Assembly: GCA_041287335.1 (NCBI GenBank) | Contig: JBEULM010000047.1 | Span: forward strand, 23,445-87,444 | DNA: 64,000 nt | Direction: 5' to 3' | DNA from: Hydrogenobacter sp. | Lineage (GTDB): Bacteria; Aquificota; Aquificia; Aquificales; Aquificaceae | Part shown: in pieces, positions 4,253 to 9,513 of the stretch | Numbering within the stretch: position 1 is the stretch's first letter | Layout: each line of letters opens with the position of its first letter | The notes under the pieces: model-generated | The model's input: only the letters and a program-made list of their open reading frames with translations | The model's database searches: none | Told to the model about the DNA's origin: nothing | Translations under genes and position numbers: made by a program

Positions 4253-4462
4253 TTAAGCCTTCTTCTCTTCTTTTTCTAACTCTTCAGCCTTTATTTCCTT
4301 AGCCTTCTTTTCTTCCTCTATTTCCCCAGATAGAGCCTTTTTGAAATTTCTTATGCCTTCACCAAGAGCTTTTCCAGCTTCCGGTAGTCGTGAAGCACCA
4401 AAAAGCACAAATATTATGGCTAAAAGTACCAGCAGTTCCGGTAATGTAGGCATGTGAAACAT
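4253..4462 (-). CDS. tatA: TatA/E family subunit (copy 2)
   Basis: [35 protein letters not shown]; ATG at 4462 with GGAGG 6 nt upstream. Confidence 0.93.
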   Translation of the reverse strand: MFHMPTLPELLVLLAIIFVLFGASRLPEAGKALGEGIRNFKKALSGEIEEEKKAKEIKAEELEKEEKKA

Positions 4463-4464
4463 GT

Positions 4465-4641
4465 TCAACCTCCTTCCTTTTCGGATACATTTTTCTGAGT
4501 TTCCTCTCCAGACAAAGCCTTTTTGAAGTTTCTTATACCTTCACCCAATCCTTTACCGAGTTCGGGTAACCTGCTCGCTCCGAATATCACGAACACTACC
4601 AAAAGTATGAGTATTAACTGCCACGGTAAGGGCAAATGCAT
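4465..4641 (-). CDS. tatA: TatA/E family subunit (copy 1), 58 aa, absent from ORF track
   Basis: Translated by hand: [58 protein letters not shown]; AGGAGGT SD upstream. Confidence 0.93.
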
Positions 4642-6846: not shown

Positions 6847-7507
6847 GTTTTCCTCATGCGATGGCTGTCAGATCGCCTTTTTTGAGTTTAGAGAAATGCT
6901 CCAAGTTTTTGAAAGATTTGATGTGGTTTACTTCCTTGAAGCTCAAAGTGAGAATATTTACGAGGAGTTTGATCTTTCCTTTGTTGAAGGTTCAGTATCA
7001 AATGAGGAGGACAAAGAGAGAATCTTGGATATAAGGAAAAGATCAAAAATACTCGTAGCCATGGGGGCATGTGCCATCTCTGGAGGAGTCCAGAGCGCAG
7101 GTAATTTTGAAGGCATTCTAAAAACTGAGCCTCTTGATGTCTTTGTTGAAGTTGATTACGAGCTTCCCGGATGTCCAGTAAGTAGCGATCTTTTGGTGGA
7201 CTTTCTTATGAGTATTTTGCATGGAAAGAGACCGCGTACAGCTGAATATCCTGTGTGTCTTGAGTGCAAGAGGAAAGGTAACATATGTGTTACTGTTTTA
7301 AAGGGAGAAGTTTGTCTCGGACCTGTTATCAGAGCAGGTTGTGGTGCCATATGCCCTTCTTTTGGAAGAGGATGTTACGGATGTTATGGACCAGTGCAAA
7401 AACCTAACCTGGAAAGCTTTTTGACACATTTCCCTCAAGCTCACGATGTACTAAAACTCAGTGCCAACGCTTACAATAAGGTTTATAAAGAAAAGCTATG
7501 GAGGTAA
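6827..7507 (+). CDS. [NiFe]-hydrogenase small (delta-like) subunit, group 3b-like
   Basis: TTG start with GGAGG; SSCDGCQ, GACAISGG, LPGCP, Cys-rich C-terminus (CLECK, CLGP, GCGAICP, GCYGC). Confidence 0.88.
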   Translation: MKVGVFKFSSCDGCQIAFFEFREMLQVFERFDVVYFLEAQSENIYEEFDLSFVEGSVSNEEDKERILDIRKRSKILVAMGACAISGGVQSAGNFEGILKTEPLDVFVEVDYELPGCPVSSDLLVDFLMSILHGKRPRTAEYPVCLECKRKGNICVTVLKGEVCLGPVIRAGCGAICPSFGRGCYGCYGPVQKPNLESFLTHFPQAHDVLKLSANAYNKVYKEKLWR

Positions 7508-8769
7508 GGATAGAAGCTCTGACCAGAGTTGAAGGGGAAGGTGCGCTGGATATAGTATTTGAAAAAGATCAAATCAAGACTCTTAAGCTAAGAATATACG
7601 AACCTCCAAGATACTTTGAGGAGATCTTGAAAGGGAAATCTTACAGTTTCATTCCTGATGTAACTGCACGTATATGCGGTATATGTCCGGTAGCTTATCA
7701 GATGAGTGGCGTTCAAGCAATAGAGGATGTTTTTAAGGTTTGCTTGCCAACACAAATAATTAATTTGAGGAAGCTGATGTATTATGGGGAATGGATACAG
7801 AGCCACTCTATACACGTGTTTTTTCTGCACCTGCCAGATTTTTATCGTGTCTCATCCATCGTGGAGCTTGCAAAAATAGATAAAGAACTGGTACAAGATG
7901 GGCTAAAAATCAAAGAGATAGGATCAAAGATAATTCAATCCATAGGCGGAAGGGTATCTCATCCTGTCTCGGTTAGTGTAGGAGGTTTTCACTCACTACC
8001 GGAACGCCTTAGTATAACAGATAAGGATGTAGAAGATGCGATAGATGTATGTTACAGATTGCTCGGAAGATTAAAAAATTTAGAATTCCCAAACTTTGAG
8101 TTAAAAGATGCACTCTTTGTATCACTAACAAGCGATGATTATCCAATACTCAATGGGGATATACTCACAAGCGAAGGCAAAATTATTGATAAAAGCGAGT
8201 TCAAAGAGTACTTTAAGGAATATATAGTACCATACTCAACGGCTAAGCATGCAAAAACCAAGAAAGGGCAAACTTATATAGTGGGACCATTGGCACGTTT
8301 CAATAACAATTACGCAAAGCTCGGTTCTGTAGCTAATCATTATGCTCAGAAGTTACCCTTGAAAGTTCCGGAACTAAACCCTTACAAGAGTATTTTGGTG
8401 AGGATGGTGGAAATTGTACACAGTCTTGAAAAATCCTTACATATACTGAAAAACTACACAAAACCTGAGAGTTCAAAGGTAAACTATGAGGTGAGGGCAG
8501 GCACGGGTTTTGGCGTAAGTGAAGCACCAAGGGGTATACTTTGGCACAGTTATGAACTTGACACCGAAGGAAGGATATTAAAAGCTGATATCGTACCGCC
8601 TACTTCTCAGAATCAGGACATTATGGAGCTTTCCTTAAGAGATAGATTAAATCAGCTTGAGAAAAAGGAGGAGAGCTTTATAAGGGAAGAAGCAGAGAGA
8701 CTAATAAGGAGTTTTGATCCCTGTATATCATGTGCTACGCACTTCCTGAAGATAAATATAATATACTAA
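7498..8769 (+). CDS. [NiFe]-hydrogenase large (alpha-like) subunit, group 3b-like
   Basis: RVEGEG, L1 RICGICP, EAPRG, L2 DPCISCATH with short C-terminal extension. Confidence 0.93.
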   Translation: MEVRIEALTRVEGEGALDIVFEKDQIKTLKLRIYEPPRYFEEILKGKSYSFIPDVTARICGICPVAYQMSGVQAIEDVFKVCLPTQIINLRKLMYYGEWIQSHSIHVFFLHLPDFYRVSSIVELAKIDKELVQDGLKIKEIGSKIIQSIGGRVSHPVSVSVGGFHSLPERLSITDKDVEDAIDVCYRLLGRLKNLEFPNFELKDALFVSLTSDDYPILNGDILTSEGKIIDKSEFKEYFKEYIVPYSTAKHAKTKKGQTYIVGPLARFNNNYAKLGSVANHYAQKLPLKVPELNPYKSILVRMVEIVHSLEKSLHILKNYTKPESSKVNYEVRAGTGFGVSEAPRGILWHSYELDTEGRILKADIVPPTSQNQDIMELSLRDRLNQLEKKEESFIREEAERLIRSFDPCISCATHFLKINIIY

Positions 8770-8771
8770 GA

Positions 8772-8862
8772 AGACCGCTCCAATACCGCCAGCTGGGGAA
8801 GGAACGGTCTAATTTGGCGGGATACAAATGCCCCAGCCCGAAGCCATCACTTTTGGCTTCGG
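8772..8862. ncRNA. Candidate structured RNA / cis-element, family not recognised
   Basis: GC-rich intergenic island with four complementary pairs: 8772-81/8801-10, 8786-91/8815-20, 8792-98/8831-37, 8838-45/8855-62. Confidence 0.5.
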
Positions 8863-8877
8863 AGGAGAGGGAAAGAG

Positions 8878-9513
8878 ATGATAGAGGTAAAACCTGTAGA
8901 GCAAGATATGGAAGCACTTGTGTCAAGGGTATTTTTGAAAGCCATTGATCTACTTGGAGGTTTTTCTAAACTCGTAGAGTACAGAACACTTACGTGGCTT
9001 CCATCTTTGGTAAGGGCTTGCTATACGGTTATCCTCAGGGAGGAGTATCTGAAAACAGAACAAGAGATAGCTGAGCGTGTAGGACTTACAGGACAAACTG
9101 TTAGAAATATACTCAGAGCTGACCCTACAGTTACTATGGAAAAGATAAAGAGGCTTGAAGACCTTGTTGAAGAAGAGAGGAAGGAGATGAAGGTGCATAC
9201 AGCGGGAGGACTTGCCAAGCTCGCATACAAACTGATAAAGGAAGGTCATGAAGAATCAAAGGTCTTTATTGAATACTGCGAGAGGATCGCTCACGCTCTT
9301 GACATCCCTTGGGCATACATAACATTGAGAAGATTAAAAGGTGTGGACTTTCCCATAGGATCAGCCGAAGATATAAAGGAAAAATTGATGGGAGTATACA
9401 TAAAGGGAAGACCCGCAGAGGAAGTGATCGCCGAGCTTGAGTATCCCGTTAAAAATCCGGCAGAACTCTTGCATAAAGTTAAGGAAAATCTCAAGATGCA
9501 TGGCATTGAGTAA
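8878..9513 (+). CDS. HTH protein resembling the KaiC-associated regulatory domain family
   Basis: RTLTWLPSLVRACY, KTEQEIAERVGLTGQTVRNIL (HTH), HTAGGLAKLAY. Confidence 0.65.
   Translation: MIEVKPVEQDMEALVSRVFLKAIDLLGGFSKLVEYRTLTWLPSLVRACYTVILREEYLKTEQEIAERVGLTGQTVRNILRADPTVTMEKIKRLEDLVEEERKEMKVHTAGGLAKLAYKLIKEGHEESKVFIEYCERIAHALDIPWAYITLRRLKGVDFPIGSAEDIKEKLMGVYIKGRPAEEVIAELEYPVKNPAELLHKVKENLKMHGIE

What the first reader, a model, noticed from the sequence alone, without database searches (positions are those of the whole stretch)
8772..8862. GC-rich intergenic element with three mutually crossing helices plus a hairpin
Seen: within 91 nt, AGACCGCTCC(8772-81) pairs with GGAACGGTCT(8801-10), CCGCCA(8786-91) with TGGCGG(8815-20), GCTGGGG(8792-98) with CCCCAGC(8831-37), and CCGAAGCC(8838-45) with GGCTTCGG(8855-62). 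The first stem's C.A mismatch becomes G-U on the minus strand, hinting at a minus-strand RNA antisense to the hydrogenase 3' end. On the plus strand the last hairpin abuts the AGGAG SD of the HTH gene. The crossing topology implies a pseudoknot or alternative conformers. I could not match it to any riboswitch or ribozyme I know. Inference: an unannotated riboswitch-like leader or small ncRNA.
Basis: partly seen in the sequence, partly recalled or inferred. Interest (0 to 1): 0.65.

Follow-up and report, generated by a model that had tools for sequence, protein, structure and literature searches.

The report
Orphan transposon guide-RNA core as gene leader
The 91-base GC-rich element is a real, knotted RNA fold: a stand-alone copy of the core of the guide RNA of a TnpB-type transposon common in hot-spring bacteria, sitting here as the leader of a regulator gene; related stand-alone copies are kept by selection even in genomes with no such transposon.

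Summary
**Observation.** It is confirmed. All four helices are at the stated coordinates. In an alignment of 74 homologues, 28 of 32 base pairs show compensatory changes, including both crossing helices.

**Strand.** The RNA strand is +.

**Identity.**
- The element matches no Rfam family.
- It is a dispersed family: 10 copies in this genome and about 390 in 116 of 178 Aquificota genomes. It also occurs in thermophilic Firmicutes.
- Many copies overlap the 3' end of a ~550-aa "TnpB-related" gene and run to the right end of that insertion sequence (IS). That is where a TnpB guide RNA (omega RNA) lies.
- The window copy is solo. It has no tnpB, and it lacks both the upstream hairpin and the ACCAGG tail that would form the guide-adjacent pseudoknot.
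- It lies between a TATAAT box and the AGGAG ribosome-binding site of an HTH regulator gene. Close relatives lack it there.

**Not a metabolite riboswitch.** Downstream genes are unrelated housekeeping and stress genes, and no expression platform is visible.

**Evidence for a function.**
- Nearly all copies end about 15 nt before a start codon.
- One solo copy is conserved in 19 species. Its core is as constrained as second codon positions.
- Several of those genomes have no TnpB-family gene at all.

**Best reading.** It is an omega-RNA core reused as a cis-acting 5' leader fold. The mechanism is not shown.

The parts
7498..8769 (+). Upstream gene: NiFe hydrogenase large subunit. Its stop codon ends 2 nt before the element.
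   Evidence: ORF; Pfam NiFeSe_Hases 9.8e-27.
8757..8762 (+). TATAAT, a -10-like box 9 nt before P1. No -35 box is recognisable.
   Evidence: Sequence. The promoter scan finds no full sigma-70 site. In 70 solo copies, -10-like hexamers peak 4-10 nt before P1.
8772..8781 (+). P1, 5' arm (AGACCGCUCC).
   Evidence: Pairs with 8801-8810. All 9 P1 pairs covary in 74 homologues.
8782..8785 (+). Conserved A-rich joiner (AAUA) between P1 and the first pseudoknot strand.
   Evidence: AAAUA, AAAA or AAUA in nearly all copies.
8786..8790 (+). PKa, 5' strand (CCGCC), inside the P1 loop.
   Evidence: Pairs with GGCGG 8816-8820. One pair swaps C-G to G-C in two genera; the rest are invariant.
8792..8798 (+). 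PKb, 5' strand (GCUGGGG), inside the P1 loop.
   Evidence: Pairs with 8831-8837. 7/7 pairs covary and 99.6% of cells pair.
8801..8810 (+). P1, 3' arm (GGAACGGUCU).
8816..8820 (+). PKa, 3' strand (GGCGG).
8821..8830 (+). Conserved single-stranded joiner GAUACAAAUG (family consensus RAUAYAAAUA).
   Evidence: Near-invariant in alignments A1 and A4. It lies within the core segment that is 95.4% identical across 19 orthologous HtpX leaders.
8831..8837 (+). PKb, 3' strand (CCCCAGC).
8838..8862 (+). P4 hairpin (CCGAAGCC(A) ... (U)GGCUUCGG).
   Evidence: 10/10 pairs covary.
8863..8867 (+). Shine-Dalgarno AGGAG, directly after P4 and left unpaired.
   Evidence: Relatives without the element have AGGAGGGAAA(A)ACATG at the same place.
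8878..9513 (+). Downstream gene: HTH_3 plus 'near_KaiC' regulatory-domain protein. Its ATG lies 15 nt after P4.
   Evidence: ORF; Pfam HTH_3 3.3e-5; TIGR03879 2.6e-35; conserved in 74/90 genomes of the family.

Best explanation
**What it is.** Window 8772-8862 is a stand-alone (solo) copy of the core domain of a roughly 100-150-nt structured RNA. That RNA belongs to an IS200/IS605-type insertion sequence (IS) carrying a 'TnpB-related' gene.

**The intact element.**
- The RNA overlaps the 3' end of tnpB and runs to the right end of the element. This is the position and general build of a TnpB guide RNA (omega RNA or reRNA).
- Its parts, in order, are: an upstream hairpin P0; stem P1, whose loop makes two crossing pseudoknot helices (PKa, PKb) with downstream strands; hairpin P4; an ACCAGG tail; then the flanking DNA, which would serve as the guide.

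**The window copy.**
- It keeps only P1, PKa, PKb and P4.
- It has no tnpB, no P0 and no tail, so it is most likely not a working guide RNA.
- It lies on the + strand between a TATAAT box and the AGGAG ribosome-binding site of the HTH regulator gene. It therefore forms the 5' leader of that mRNA, or an intercistronic spacer if the gene is co-transcribed with the hydrogenase.

**Most likely mechanism (inferred, not shown).** The compact, heat-stable knotted fold at or near the mRNA 5' end, ending about 15 nt before the start codon, acts in cis. It would protect the 5' end from nucleases, insulate the ribosome-binding site, or both, independently of TnpB. It is not a metabolite-sensing riboswitch.
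For: **Structure.** See the covariation.

**Family size.**
- The covariance model finds 10 copies in this genome.
- It finds matches in 116/178 genomes and 27/34 genera of the phylum.
- It also finds copies in Caldanaerobacter, Thermoanaerobacter, Caldicoprobacter and others.

**Link to TnpB.**
- In S. azorense, H. thermophilus and others, the motif overlaps the stop codon of a 546-560-aa ORF.
- That ORF matches TIGR01765 (3.5e-21), TIGR01766 (8.7e-14), guided_TnpB and Cas12f2.
- NCBI names it 'IS200/IS605 family accessory protein TnpB-related protein'.
- Candidate RuvC residues can be read in GIDIN, AIENL and DKDIAGA.
- Copies within one genome stay alike up to ...ACCAGGT and then diverge.

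**The window copy is solo.**
- The hydrogenase stop lies 2 nt upstream.
- This genome holds only N- and C-terminal fragments of the cognate TnpB.
- Copies still linked to tnpB carry P0 and the tail, which this one lacks.

**Function independent of TnpB.**
- In 19 species, the solo copy before the M48 (HtpX-like) protease gene has core identity of 95-97%. Third codon positions are 59% identical, flanks about 50%, and stems 51-65% with compensation.
- Several of these genomes have no TnpB-family hit at all.
- G019, also TnpB-free, carries 18 solo copies.

**Geometry.**
- In most of the 74 copies a same-strand ORF starts 8-21 nt after P4.
- -10-like boxes peak 4-10 nt before P1.

**Stability.** Each helix is still favourable at 70-80 C in the nearest-neighbour model.
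Against: - There are no expression data.
- This particular copy is lineage-specific. Of the 30 best orthologous HTH loci, only this genome has it. It also carries a C.A mismatch in P1. It may therefore be a recent, neutral remnant.
- No -35 box accompanies the TATAAT.
- A simple hairpin would be enough to protect a 5' end. The near-invariant core suggests a more specific, unknown activity or partner.
- Covariation shows that each helix forms. It does not show that all three crossing helices form at once.
- That the tnpB-linked RNA really is a guide RNA rests on position, architecture and family annotation. No binding or cleavage data exist.
Confidence: 0.6

Rival explanations
1. Neutral relic. 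This copy is a leftover right-end fragment of a decayed insertion sequence. It has no function of its own and is tolerated because it leaves the promoter and ribosome-binding site usable.
For: - The copy is absent from the same locus in close relatives.
- The genome holds decayed tnpB fragments beside other copies, at C53 and C28.
- P1 has a C.A mismatch.
Against: - The fold is otherwise intact.
- The solo class as a whole is under strong purifying selection in TnpB-free genomes.
- The copy is a clean P1-to-P4 module placed exactly between the -10 box and the SD.
Confidence: 0.3
2. Active trans-acting guide RNA. The solo copy supplies an omega RNA to a TnpB or a nuclease-dead TnpB-like repressor encoded elsewhere. 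The ribosome-binding-site region would act as the guide.
For: - It is homologous to tnpB-linked RNAs.
- This genome has other TnpB families, with TIGR01766 hits on 11 contigs.
- TnpB-derived RNA-guided repressors are known (PMC10705468).
Against: - No intact cognate TnpB is present in this genome.
- The copy lacks P0 and the ACCAGG tail, the candidate guide-adjacent pseudoknot. That pseudoknot is conserved in TnpB and Cas12 guide RNAs (PMC10097598).
- Related solo copies persist in genomes with no TnpB-family gene.
Confidence: 0.05
3. Self-processing or nuclease-blocking RNA. The invariant double-pseudoknot core is a small ribozyme or an exonuclease-resistant knot. It would define and protect the 5' end of the downstream mRNA, and of the guide RNA in the intact element.
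For: - About 35 near-invariant core nucleotides lie between covarying stems.
- The core is kept without TnpB.
- It sits at the start of transcripts.
- It is associated with a mobile element, as several small ribozymes are (general knowledge).
Against: - It matches no known ribozyme family in Rfam.
- By my own comparison from memory, the strand order (A B C A' B' C' then a hairpin) differs from the HDV-like, twister, pistol and hatchet ribozymes.
- No cleavage data exist.
Confidence: 0.1
4. Metabolite or ion riboswitch controlling the HTH gene.
For: - The fold is conserved and pseudoknotted, with invariant joiners.
- It lies in a leader position next to the SD.
Against: - The downstream genes have no common pathway.
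- The SD lies outside all four conserved helices, and in this copy no U-run follows P4.
- The same RNA is the 3' end of a transposon gene.
Confidence: 0.03
5. Minus-strand antisense RNA, or a DNA-level transposon-end structure recognised as single-stranded DNA by a TnpA transposase.
For: - The minus strand folds slightly better in isolation.
- The C.A in P1 would be G.U on the minus strand.
- IS200/IS605 ends are known to act as DNA hairpins (general knowledge).
Against: - Homologues carry many G.U and U.G pairs on the + strand. These would be A.C on the minus strand.
- Orientation relative to genes is constant.
- Pseudoknot helices covary.
- Solo copies are conserved for long periods at fixed loci in genomes with no TnpB-family gene.
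Confidence: 0.03

Closest known systems
TnpB omega RNA / reRNA of IS200/IS605 elements (reference: ISDra2, cryo-EM in PMC10097598)
   Same: - In related copies the RNA is encoded on the tnpB strand, overlaps the 3' end of the ORF and ends at the transposon right end, so the flanking DNA follows as a guide.
- The fold is multi-stem. A hairpin loop pairs with downstream sequence, and a hairpin (P4, like stem 4) comes shortly before the guide.
- A candidate guide-adjacent pseudoknot exists (P0 loop CYUGG with tail CCAGG). It resembles the ISDra2 pseudoknot between the stem-1 loop and nt -5 to -3.
   Different: - There is no sequence or Rfam similarity.
- The middle of the scaffold is a P1 loop making two mutually crossing pseudoknot helices, not the nested stems 2 and 3.
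- The protein is about 550 aa. It has an extra N-terminal domain (TIGR01765), no CxxC zinc finger after the YTS motif, and a roughly 200-aa C-terminal extension.
- The window copy is only the core. It has no tnpB, no P0 and no tail.
Sense-overlapping transcripts (sotRNAs) at the 3' end of IS1341-type tnpB genes (PMC4615843, abstract)
   Same: A non-coding RNA lying at the 3' end of a tnpB gene on the sense strand.
   Different: Those were described in haloarchaea and some bacteria from transcript data. Here there is no transcript evidence, the fold differs, and many copies are solo.
PATEs (gene-less, non-autonomous IS200/IS605 derivatives) and other orphan omega-RNA scaffolds
   Same: A short structured remnant of an IS200/IS605-type element without its genes, dispersed in intergenic DNA.
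   Different: - PATEs keep both transposon ends. The window copy has neither the left end nor the right-end tail.
- Related solo copies stay at one locus across a genus under purifying selection. They do not behave as mobile repeats.
TldR: TnpB-like nuclease-dead repressors with their guide RNAs (PMC10705468)
   Same: Domestication of parts of the TnpB-omega RNA system for host gene control.
   Different: In TldR systems the protein is kept and the RNA still guides it. Here the RNA core is kept where no TnpB-family protein is detectable.
5'-terminal stem-loop mRNA stabilisers (for example the E. coli ompA leader; general knowledge)
   Same: A stable structure at or within a few nucleotides of the mRNA 5' end, followed by an exposed ribosome-binding site.
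   Different: Those are simple hairpins with no sequence conservation. This is a roughly 90-nt triple-crossing fold with about 35 near-invariant nucleotides. A stabilising effect is untested.

Membership tests
TnpB omega RNA / reRNA | Encoded at the 3' end of a tnpB gene, same strand, reaching the transposon right end | tested here: not met
   For the window copy, a hydrogenase gene ends 2 nt upstream and there is no tnpB. The feature is met for homologous copies in S. azorense, H. thermophilus, Caldanaerobacter and others.
TnpB omega RNA / reRNA | Homology to RNAs that are tnpB-linked | tested here: met
   Covariance model R1 scores the window copy at 82.9 bits, E 3.3e-20, in the same list as the tnpB-linked copies.
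TnpB omega RNA / reRNA | Pseudoknot directly before the guide (conserved in TnpB and Cas12 guide RNAs, PMC10097598) | tested here: not met
   Copies linked to tnpB have hairpin P0 with loop CYUGG and tail ACCAGG. The window copy has neither. Even in the linked copies this pairing shows only one-sided changes, so it is plausible but not proven.
TnpB omega RNA / reRNA | Cognate TnpB protein present in the genome | tested here: not met
   Only fragments are found: C53 28080-28256, C54 435-271 and C28 4961-5116. Other, distant TnpB families are present.
TnpB omega RNA / reRNA | RNA is expressed, binds TnpB and guides DNA cleavage | not testable with these tools
Metabolite riboswitch | Conserved aptamer fold with covariation | tested here: met
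Metabolite riboswitch | Association with a coherent set of genes (one pathway or transport function) | tested here: not met
   The downstream genes are Hsp20, L17, UvrD, aldo-keto reductase, ACP, ribonucleotide reductase, cyclopropane fatty-acid (CFA) synthase, PEBP, HTH, HtpX, Hfq, FtsZ, S20, L32, TatA and others.
Metabolite riboswitch | Expression platform (terminator, or SD-sequestering alternative helix) | tested here: not met
   The SD AGGAG lies outside all four conserved helices, and no U-run follows P4. No + strand terminator was found.
Any Rfam 15 family | Match to a curated covariance model | tested here: not met
   No relevant hit at E <= 10 for the window copy or for a tnpB-linked copy.
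PATE / MITE-like non-autonomous IS200/IS605 element | Both transposon ends (left end and right end) retained | tested here: not met
   The left end of full copies begins AGGAGGT-TAAAAACAGTT and the right-end tail is ACCAGGT. Both are absent from the window copy.

The most novel reading that the evidence does not exclude
**Autonomous RNA domain.** The P1/PKa/PKb/P4 core would be an RNA domain with an activity of its own, for example blocking 5' exonucleases or processing itself. It was first part of a transposon guide RNA. It has since been reused many times in Aquificota as a generic 'plug-in' leader for housekeeping and stress genes, and is kept by selection after the nuclease gene is lost.

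**Linked idea.** The parent insertion sequence uses the Shine-Dalgarno sequence as its target motif, inserts between the ribosome-binding site and the start codon, and supplies a replacement site (ACCAGGT).
Probability: 0.3. Interest if true: 0.8.

Novelty: new variant of a known kind. Interest (0 to 1): 0.6.

Why it matters
- **A new structural family.** It adds a well-supported guide-RNA scaffold with three mutually crossing helices. The scaffold is absent from Rfam and belongs to an unstudied, zinc-finger-less clade of TnpB-related proteins from thermophiles.
- **Exaptation of the RNA alone.** Part of a transposon guide RNA can outlive its nuclease and be kept by selection as a fixed 5' leader of host genes. 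That differs from the known reuse of the protein (Cas12, TldR).
- **Annotation.** About 390 GC-rich intergenic islands in Aquificota can now be labelled, rather than being taken for riboswitches or small RNAs.
- **A testable side result.** If the insertion geometry holds (between the ribosome-binding site and the start codon), it would be an unusual target choice for this transposon family, and one that is easy to test.

Tried and rejected
- **Rfam scans.** At E <= 10, neither the window copy nor a tnpB-linked copy gave a relevant match.
- **tRNA or tmRNA.** None lies at the site.
- **Repeats within the window.** The search found no second copy. The family only appeared in whole-genome searches.
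- **Literature.**
  - The Aquificales ncRNA survey (PMC4227106) does not describe this motif. G001, which I take to be A. aeolicus only from its size and two contigs, has no copy.
  - A search for TnpB elements inserted next to Shine-Dalgarno sites found nothing relevant.
- **Earlier notes of this scan.** None covers this stretch or sequence. Similar 'orphan omega RNA' readings exist for other genomes.
- **Conservation at the HTH locus.** Of the 30 best orthologous loci, only this genome has the element. G019 has its own copy before the orthologue, and G034 has a tnpB-linked copy about 140 nt upstream. I could not tell recurrent insertion from ancient presence with losses.
- **Exact-pattern scan of all prokaryote genomes.** It returned many chance hits in high-GC genomes such as Streptomyces. 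The covariance model rejected them.
- **Known small ribozyme topologies.** I compared the strand order with HDV-like, twister, pistol and hatchet ribozymes from memory only. It does not fit any of them.
- **Solved structures.** The PDB sequence search with the TnpB-related protein gave only a weak Cas12f1 match over the RuvC region.

Full report
**1. The observation**

- P1: AGACCGCTCC (8772-8781) pairs with GGAACGGTCT (8801-8810), with one C.A at 8778/8804.
- PKa: CCGCC (8786-8790) pairs with GGCGG (8816-8820). In this copy an extra A-U pair is possible.
- PKb: GCTGGGG (8792-8798) pairs with CCCCAGC (8831-8837).
- P4: CCGAAGCC (8838-8845) pairs with GGCTTCGG (8855-8862).

The 5' strands of PKa and PKb both lie inside the P1 loop. 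Their partners follow P1 in the same order, so the three helices cross one another.

The element lies between the NiFe hydrogenase large-subunit gene (7498-8769) and an HTH_3/'near_KaiC' regulator gene (8878-9513). AGGAG (8863-8867) follows P4 directly.

Folding the single sequence beats shuffles only modestly (z about -3 on either strand).

**2. It is a family, and the fold is real**

Rfam 15 gives no relevant match, and there is no tRNA at the site.

A DNA search of the window's own genome found two more copies. An exact-pattern search found the motif in 56 of 178 genomes of the phylum, with none in reversed controls.

I built a covariance model from 33 copies, using P1 and P4 only. It finds:
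- 10 copies in this genome;
- matches in 116 of 178 genomes and 27 of 34 genera, up to 21 per genome and about 390 in all.

On a 74-copy alignment I wrote in the two pseudoknots by hand and counted pairs.
- 94.2% of cells pair, against 69.4% in shuffles (0/500 reach it) and 32-49% with slid partners.
- 28 of 32 pairs change on both sides.
- All 7 PKb pairs covary, with 99.6% of cells paired, although PKb was not in the model. Variants include GCGGGGG/CCCCCGC, GUUGGGG/CCCCAAC, GUCAGGG/CCCUGAC, GCCGUGU/GCACGGC and GCAGACC/GGUCUGC.
- PKa is nearly invariant. One pair swaps C-G to G-C in two unrelated genera.

Frequent G.U pairs on the + strand, together with the constant orientation, show that the RNA strand is +.

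**3. What the family belongs to**

In genomes with many near-identical copies, the motif overlaps the stop codon of a 546-560-aa ORF.
- The ORF matches TIGR01765, TIGR01766, guided_TnpB and Cas12f2 models.
- NCBI names it 'IS200/IS605 family accessory protein TnpB-related protein' in Sulfurihydrogenibium azorense Az-Fu1 and Hydrogenobacter thermophilus TK-6.
- Candidate RuvC residues can be read in GIDIN, AIENL and DKDIAGA. The usual CxxC zinc finger is missing, and a roughly 200-aa C-terminal extension is present.
- Different reading frames cross the motif in different species. The conserved object is therefore the RNA, not the peptide.

Copies within one genome stay alike up to ...ACCAGGT and then diverge.

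An RNA on the tnpB strand that overlaps the ORF end and reaches the right end is where a TnpB guide RNA (omega RNA) lies. The published ISDra2 structure also has a stem whose loop forms a pseudoknot, and a hairpin shortly before the guide (PMC10097598).

Copies linked to tnpB also carry an upstream hairpin, P0, which covaries. Its loop, CYUGG, can pair with the tail CCAGG next to the presumed guide. That pairing shows only one-sided changes, so I treat it as plausible rather than proven.

The same RNA and protein pair occurs in Caldanaerobacter, Thermoanaerobacter, Caldicoprobacter and several Clostridia assemblies.

**4. The window copy**

It is solo.
- No tnpB, no P0 and no ACCAGG tail are present.
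- This genome holds only N- and C-terminal fragments of the cognate TnpB.
- Three of its ten copies (on C41, C53 and C28) still carry the sequence upstream of P1 that is typical of tnpB-linked copies. Two of them, C53 and C28, adjoin TnpB fragments.

A TATAAT lies at 8757-8762, 9 nt before P1, without a recognisable -35 box.

Close relatives have, before the same HTH gene, a TATAAT, about 9 nt, and then AGGAGGGAAA(A)ACATG. Here the P1-to-P4 module sits exactly between the -10 box and the native ribosome-binding site.

Of the 30 best orthologous loci, only this genome has the element. The upstream neighbour also differs from that in relatives, so a rearrangement at this junction is possible. 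Two other genera have their own copies near the orthologous gene.

**5. Why it is not a riboswitch, and why it may still matter**

The genes downstream of solo copies share no pathway. In this genome they are Hsp20, L17, a UvrD-like helicase, an aldo-keto reductase, ACP, ribonucleotide reductase, a lipoprotein, cyclopropane fatty-acid synthase, PEBP and the HTH gene. Elsewhere, judged from their N-terminal sequences (only HtpX was checked against Pfam), they include HtpX, Hfq, FtsZ, S20, L32, L25, RpoA, IF3, Rho, GlnA, TatA and FtsH. The ribosome-binding site lies outside all four conserved helices, and in this copy no U-run follows P4.

Three results argue that solo copies are more than debris.
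- **Fixed spacing.** In most of the 74 copies a same-strand ORF starts 8-21 nt after P4, most often 15 nt.
- **Promoter position.** In 70 solo copies, -10-like hexamers peak 4-10 nt before P1, so the fold would sit at the 5' end of the mRNA.
- **Selection.** The copy before the M48 (HtpX-like) protease gene is orthologous in 19 species of one genus.
  - Its core is 95-97% identical, with 35 of 40 columns invariant. That is about the same as second codon positions (96.6%).
  - Third codon positions are 59% identical, flanking leader about 50%, and the stems 51-65% with compensation.
  - Ten genomes of that genus have no hit to this TnpB.
  - Eight genomes have no TIGR01766 hit at all: six of that genus, plus G083 and G019. 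G019 carries 18 solo copies.
  - Gene conversion from other copies cannot explain the conservation in genomes that hold a single copy.

**6. Mechanism**

- **Shown:** the fold, its family, its link to a TnpB-related insertion sequence, the solo state of this copy, and selection on related solo copies.
- **Inferred:** the window copy is transcribed as the leader of the HTH mRNA, and it acts in cis as a heat-stable 5' structure. Each helix is still favourable at 70-80 C in the nearest-neighbour model. It would protect the mRNA 5' end, insulate the ribosome-binding site, or both.
- **Caveat:** the invariant core suggests something more specific than a hairpin stabiliser. A self-processing or exonuclease-blocking fold, or an unknown protein partner, remains open.
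- **For this copy alone,** a recent neutral remnant cannot be excluded.

**7. Side result on the parent element**

In five of six full copies in two genera, the shared left end begins right after AGGAGG(T). Promoter-like or unrelated sequence lies before it. The right end...ACCAGG(T/G), is followed after 3-8 nt by the start codon of a same-strand gene, in Aquificota and Firmicutes alike. Joining the two flanks gives a canonical ribosome-binding site. This suggests the element inserts between the Shine-Dalgarno sequence and the start codon and supplies a replacement AGG(T). I did not confirm this against empty sites.

**8. Verdict**

The riboswitch and small-RNA interpretation is only partly right. 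The element is an orphan core of a TnpB-type guide RNA in a leader position. It is a new structural variant of a known kind of RNA, with credible evidence that such orphan cores have been reused by the host.

No transcript data could be obtained.

Noticed in passing
L041 1300-1440 and 3100-3150; L038, L040, L042, L044 (S. azorense, H. thermophilus): Full copies of the TnpB-related insertion sequence start right after an AGGAGG(T) and end in ACCAGG(T/G), 3-8 nt before a host start codon. The element appears to insert between the Shine-Dalgarno sequence and the start codon and to bring a replacement site.
   Followed up: partly
G019:C10:95917-96025 (L176); G034:C1:1306149-1306240: Two other genera carry their own copy of the element at or near the orthologue of the window's HTH/near-KaiC gene. 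The G034 copy is tnpB-linked and lies about 140 nt upstream. This could be recurrent insertion at one gene, or ancient presence followed by losses.
   Followed up: partly
L041 1439-3121 (P0001); L038 1429-3111 (P0002): The TnpB-related protein has recognisable candidate RuvC D, E and D motifs but no CxxC zinc finger after the YTS motif. It also has a roughly 200-aa C-terminal extension with a weak DUF2192 match. This is an unusual build for a TnpB.
   Followed up: partly
Own genome contigs C19, C14 and C49 (contig ends), and C62, C35, C8, C46: This genome holds several other TnpB genes of about 390-500 aa from different families, some at contig ends. None is next to the RNA motif studied here.
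   Followed up: no
window 8700-8880 compared with L103 and L105: In close relatives the HTH gene is not preceded by the hydrogenase operon. In G028 the upstream sequence reads like the start of a divergently transcribed gene. The element therefore sits at a rearrangement junction in this genome.
   Followed up: partly
window 4323-4416 and 4505-4598: Two 94-nt direct repeats, 70% identical and 182 nt apart, were reported by the repeat finder. They are probably adjacent paralogous coding segments.
   Followed up: no
L003 1460-1500 (own genome C11, minus strand): In the acpP leader copy, the P4 hairpin is followed by UUUUU, which looks like a terminator, just before the acpP ribosome-binding site. 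The other solo copies lack this.
   Followed up: no
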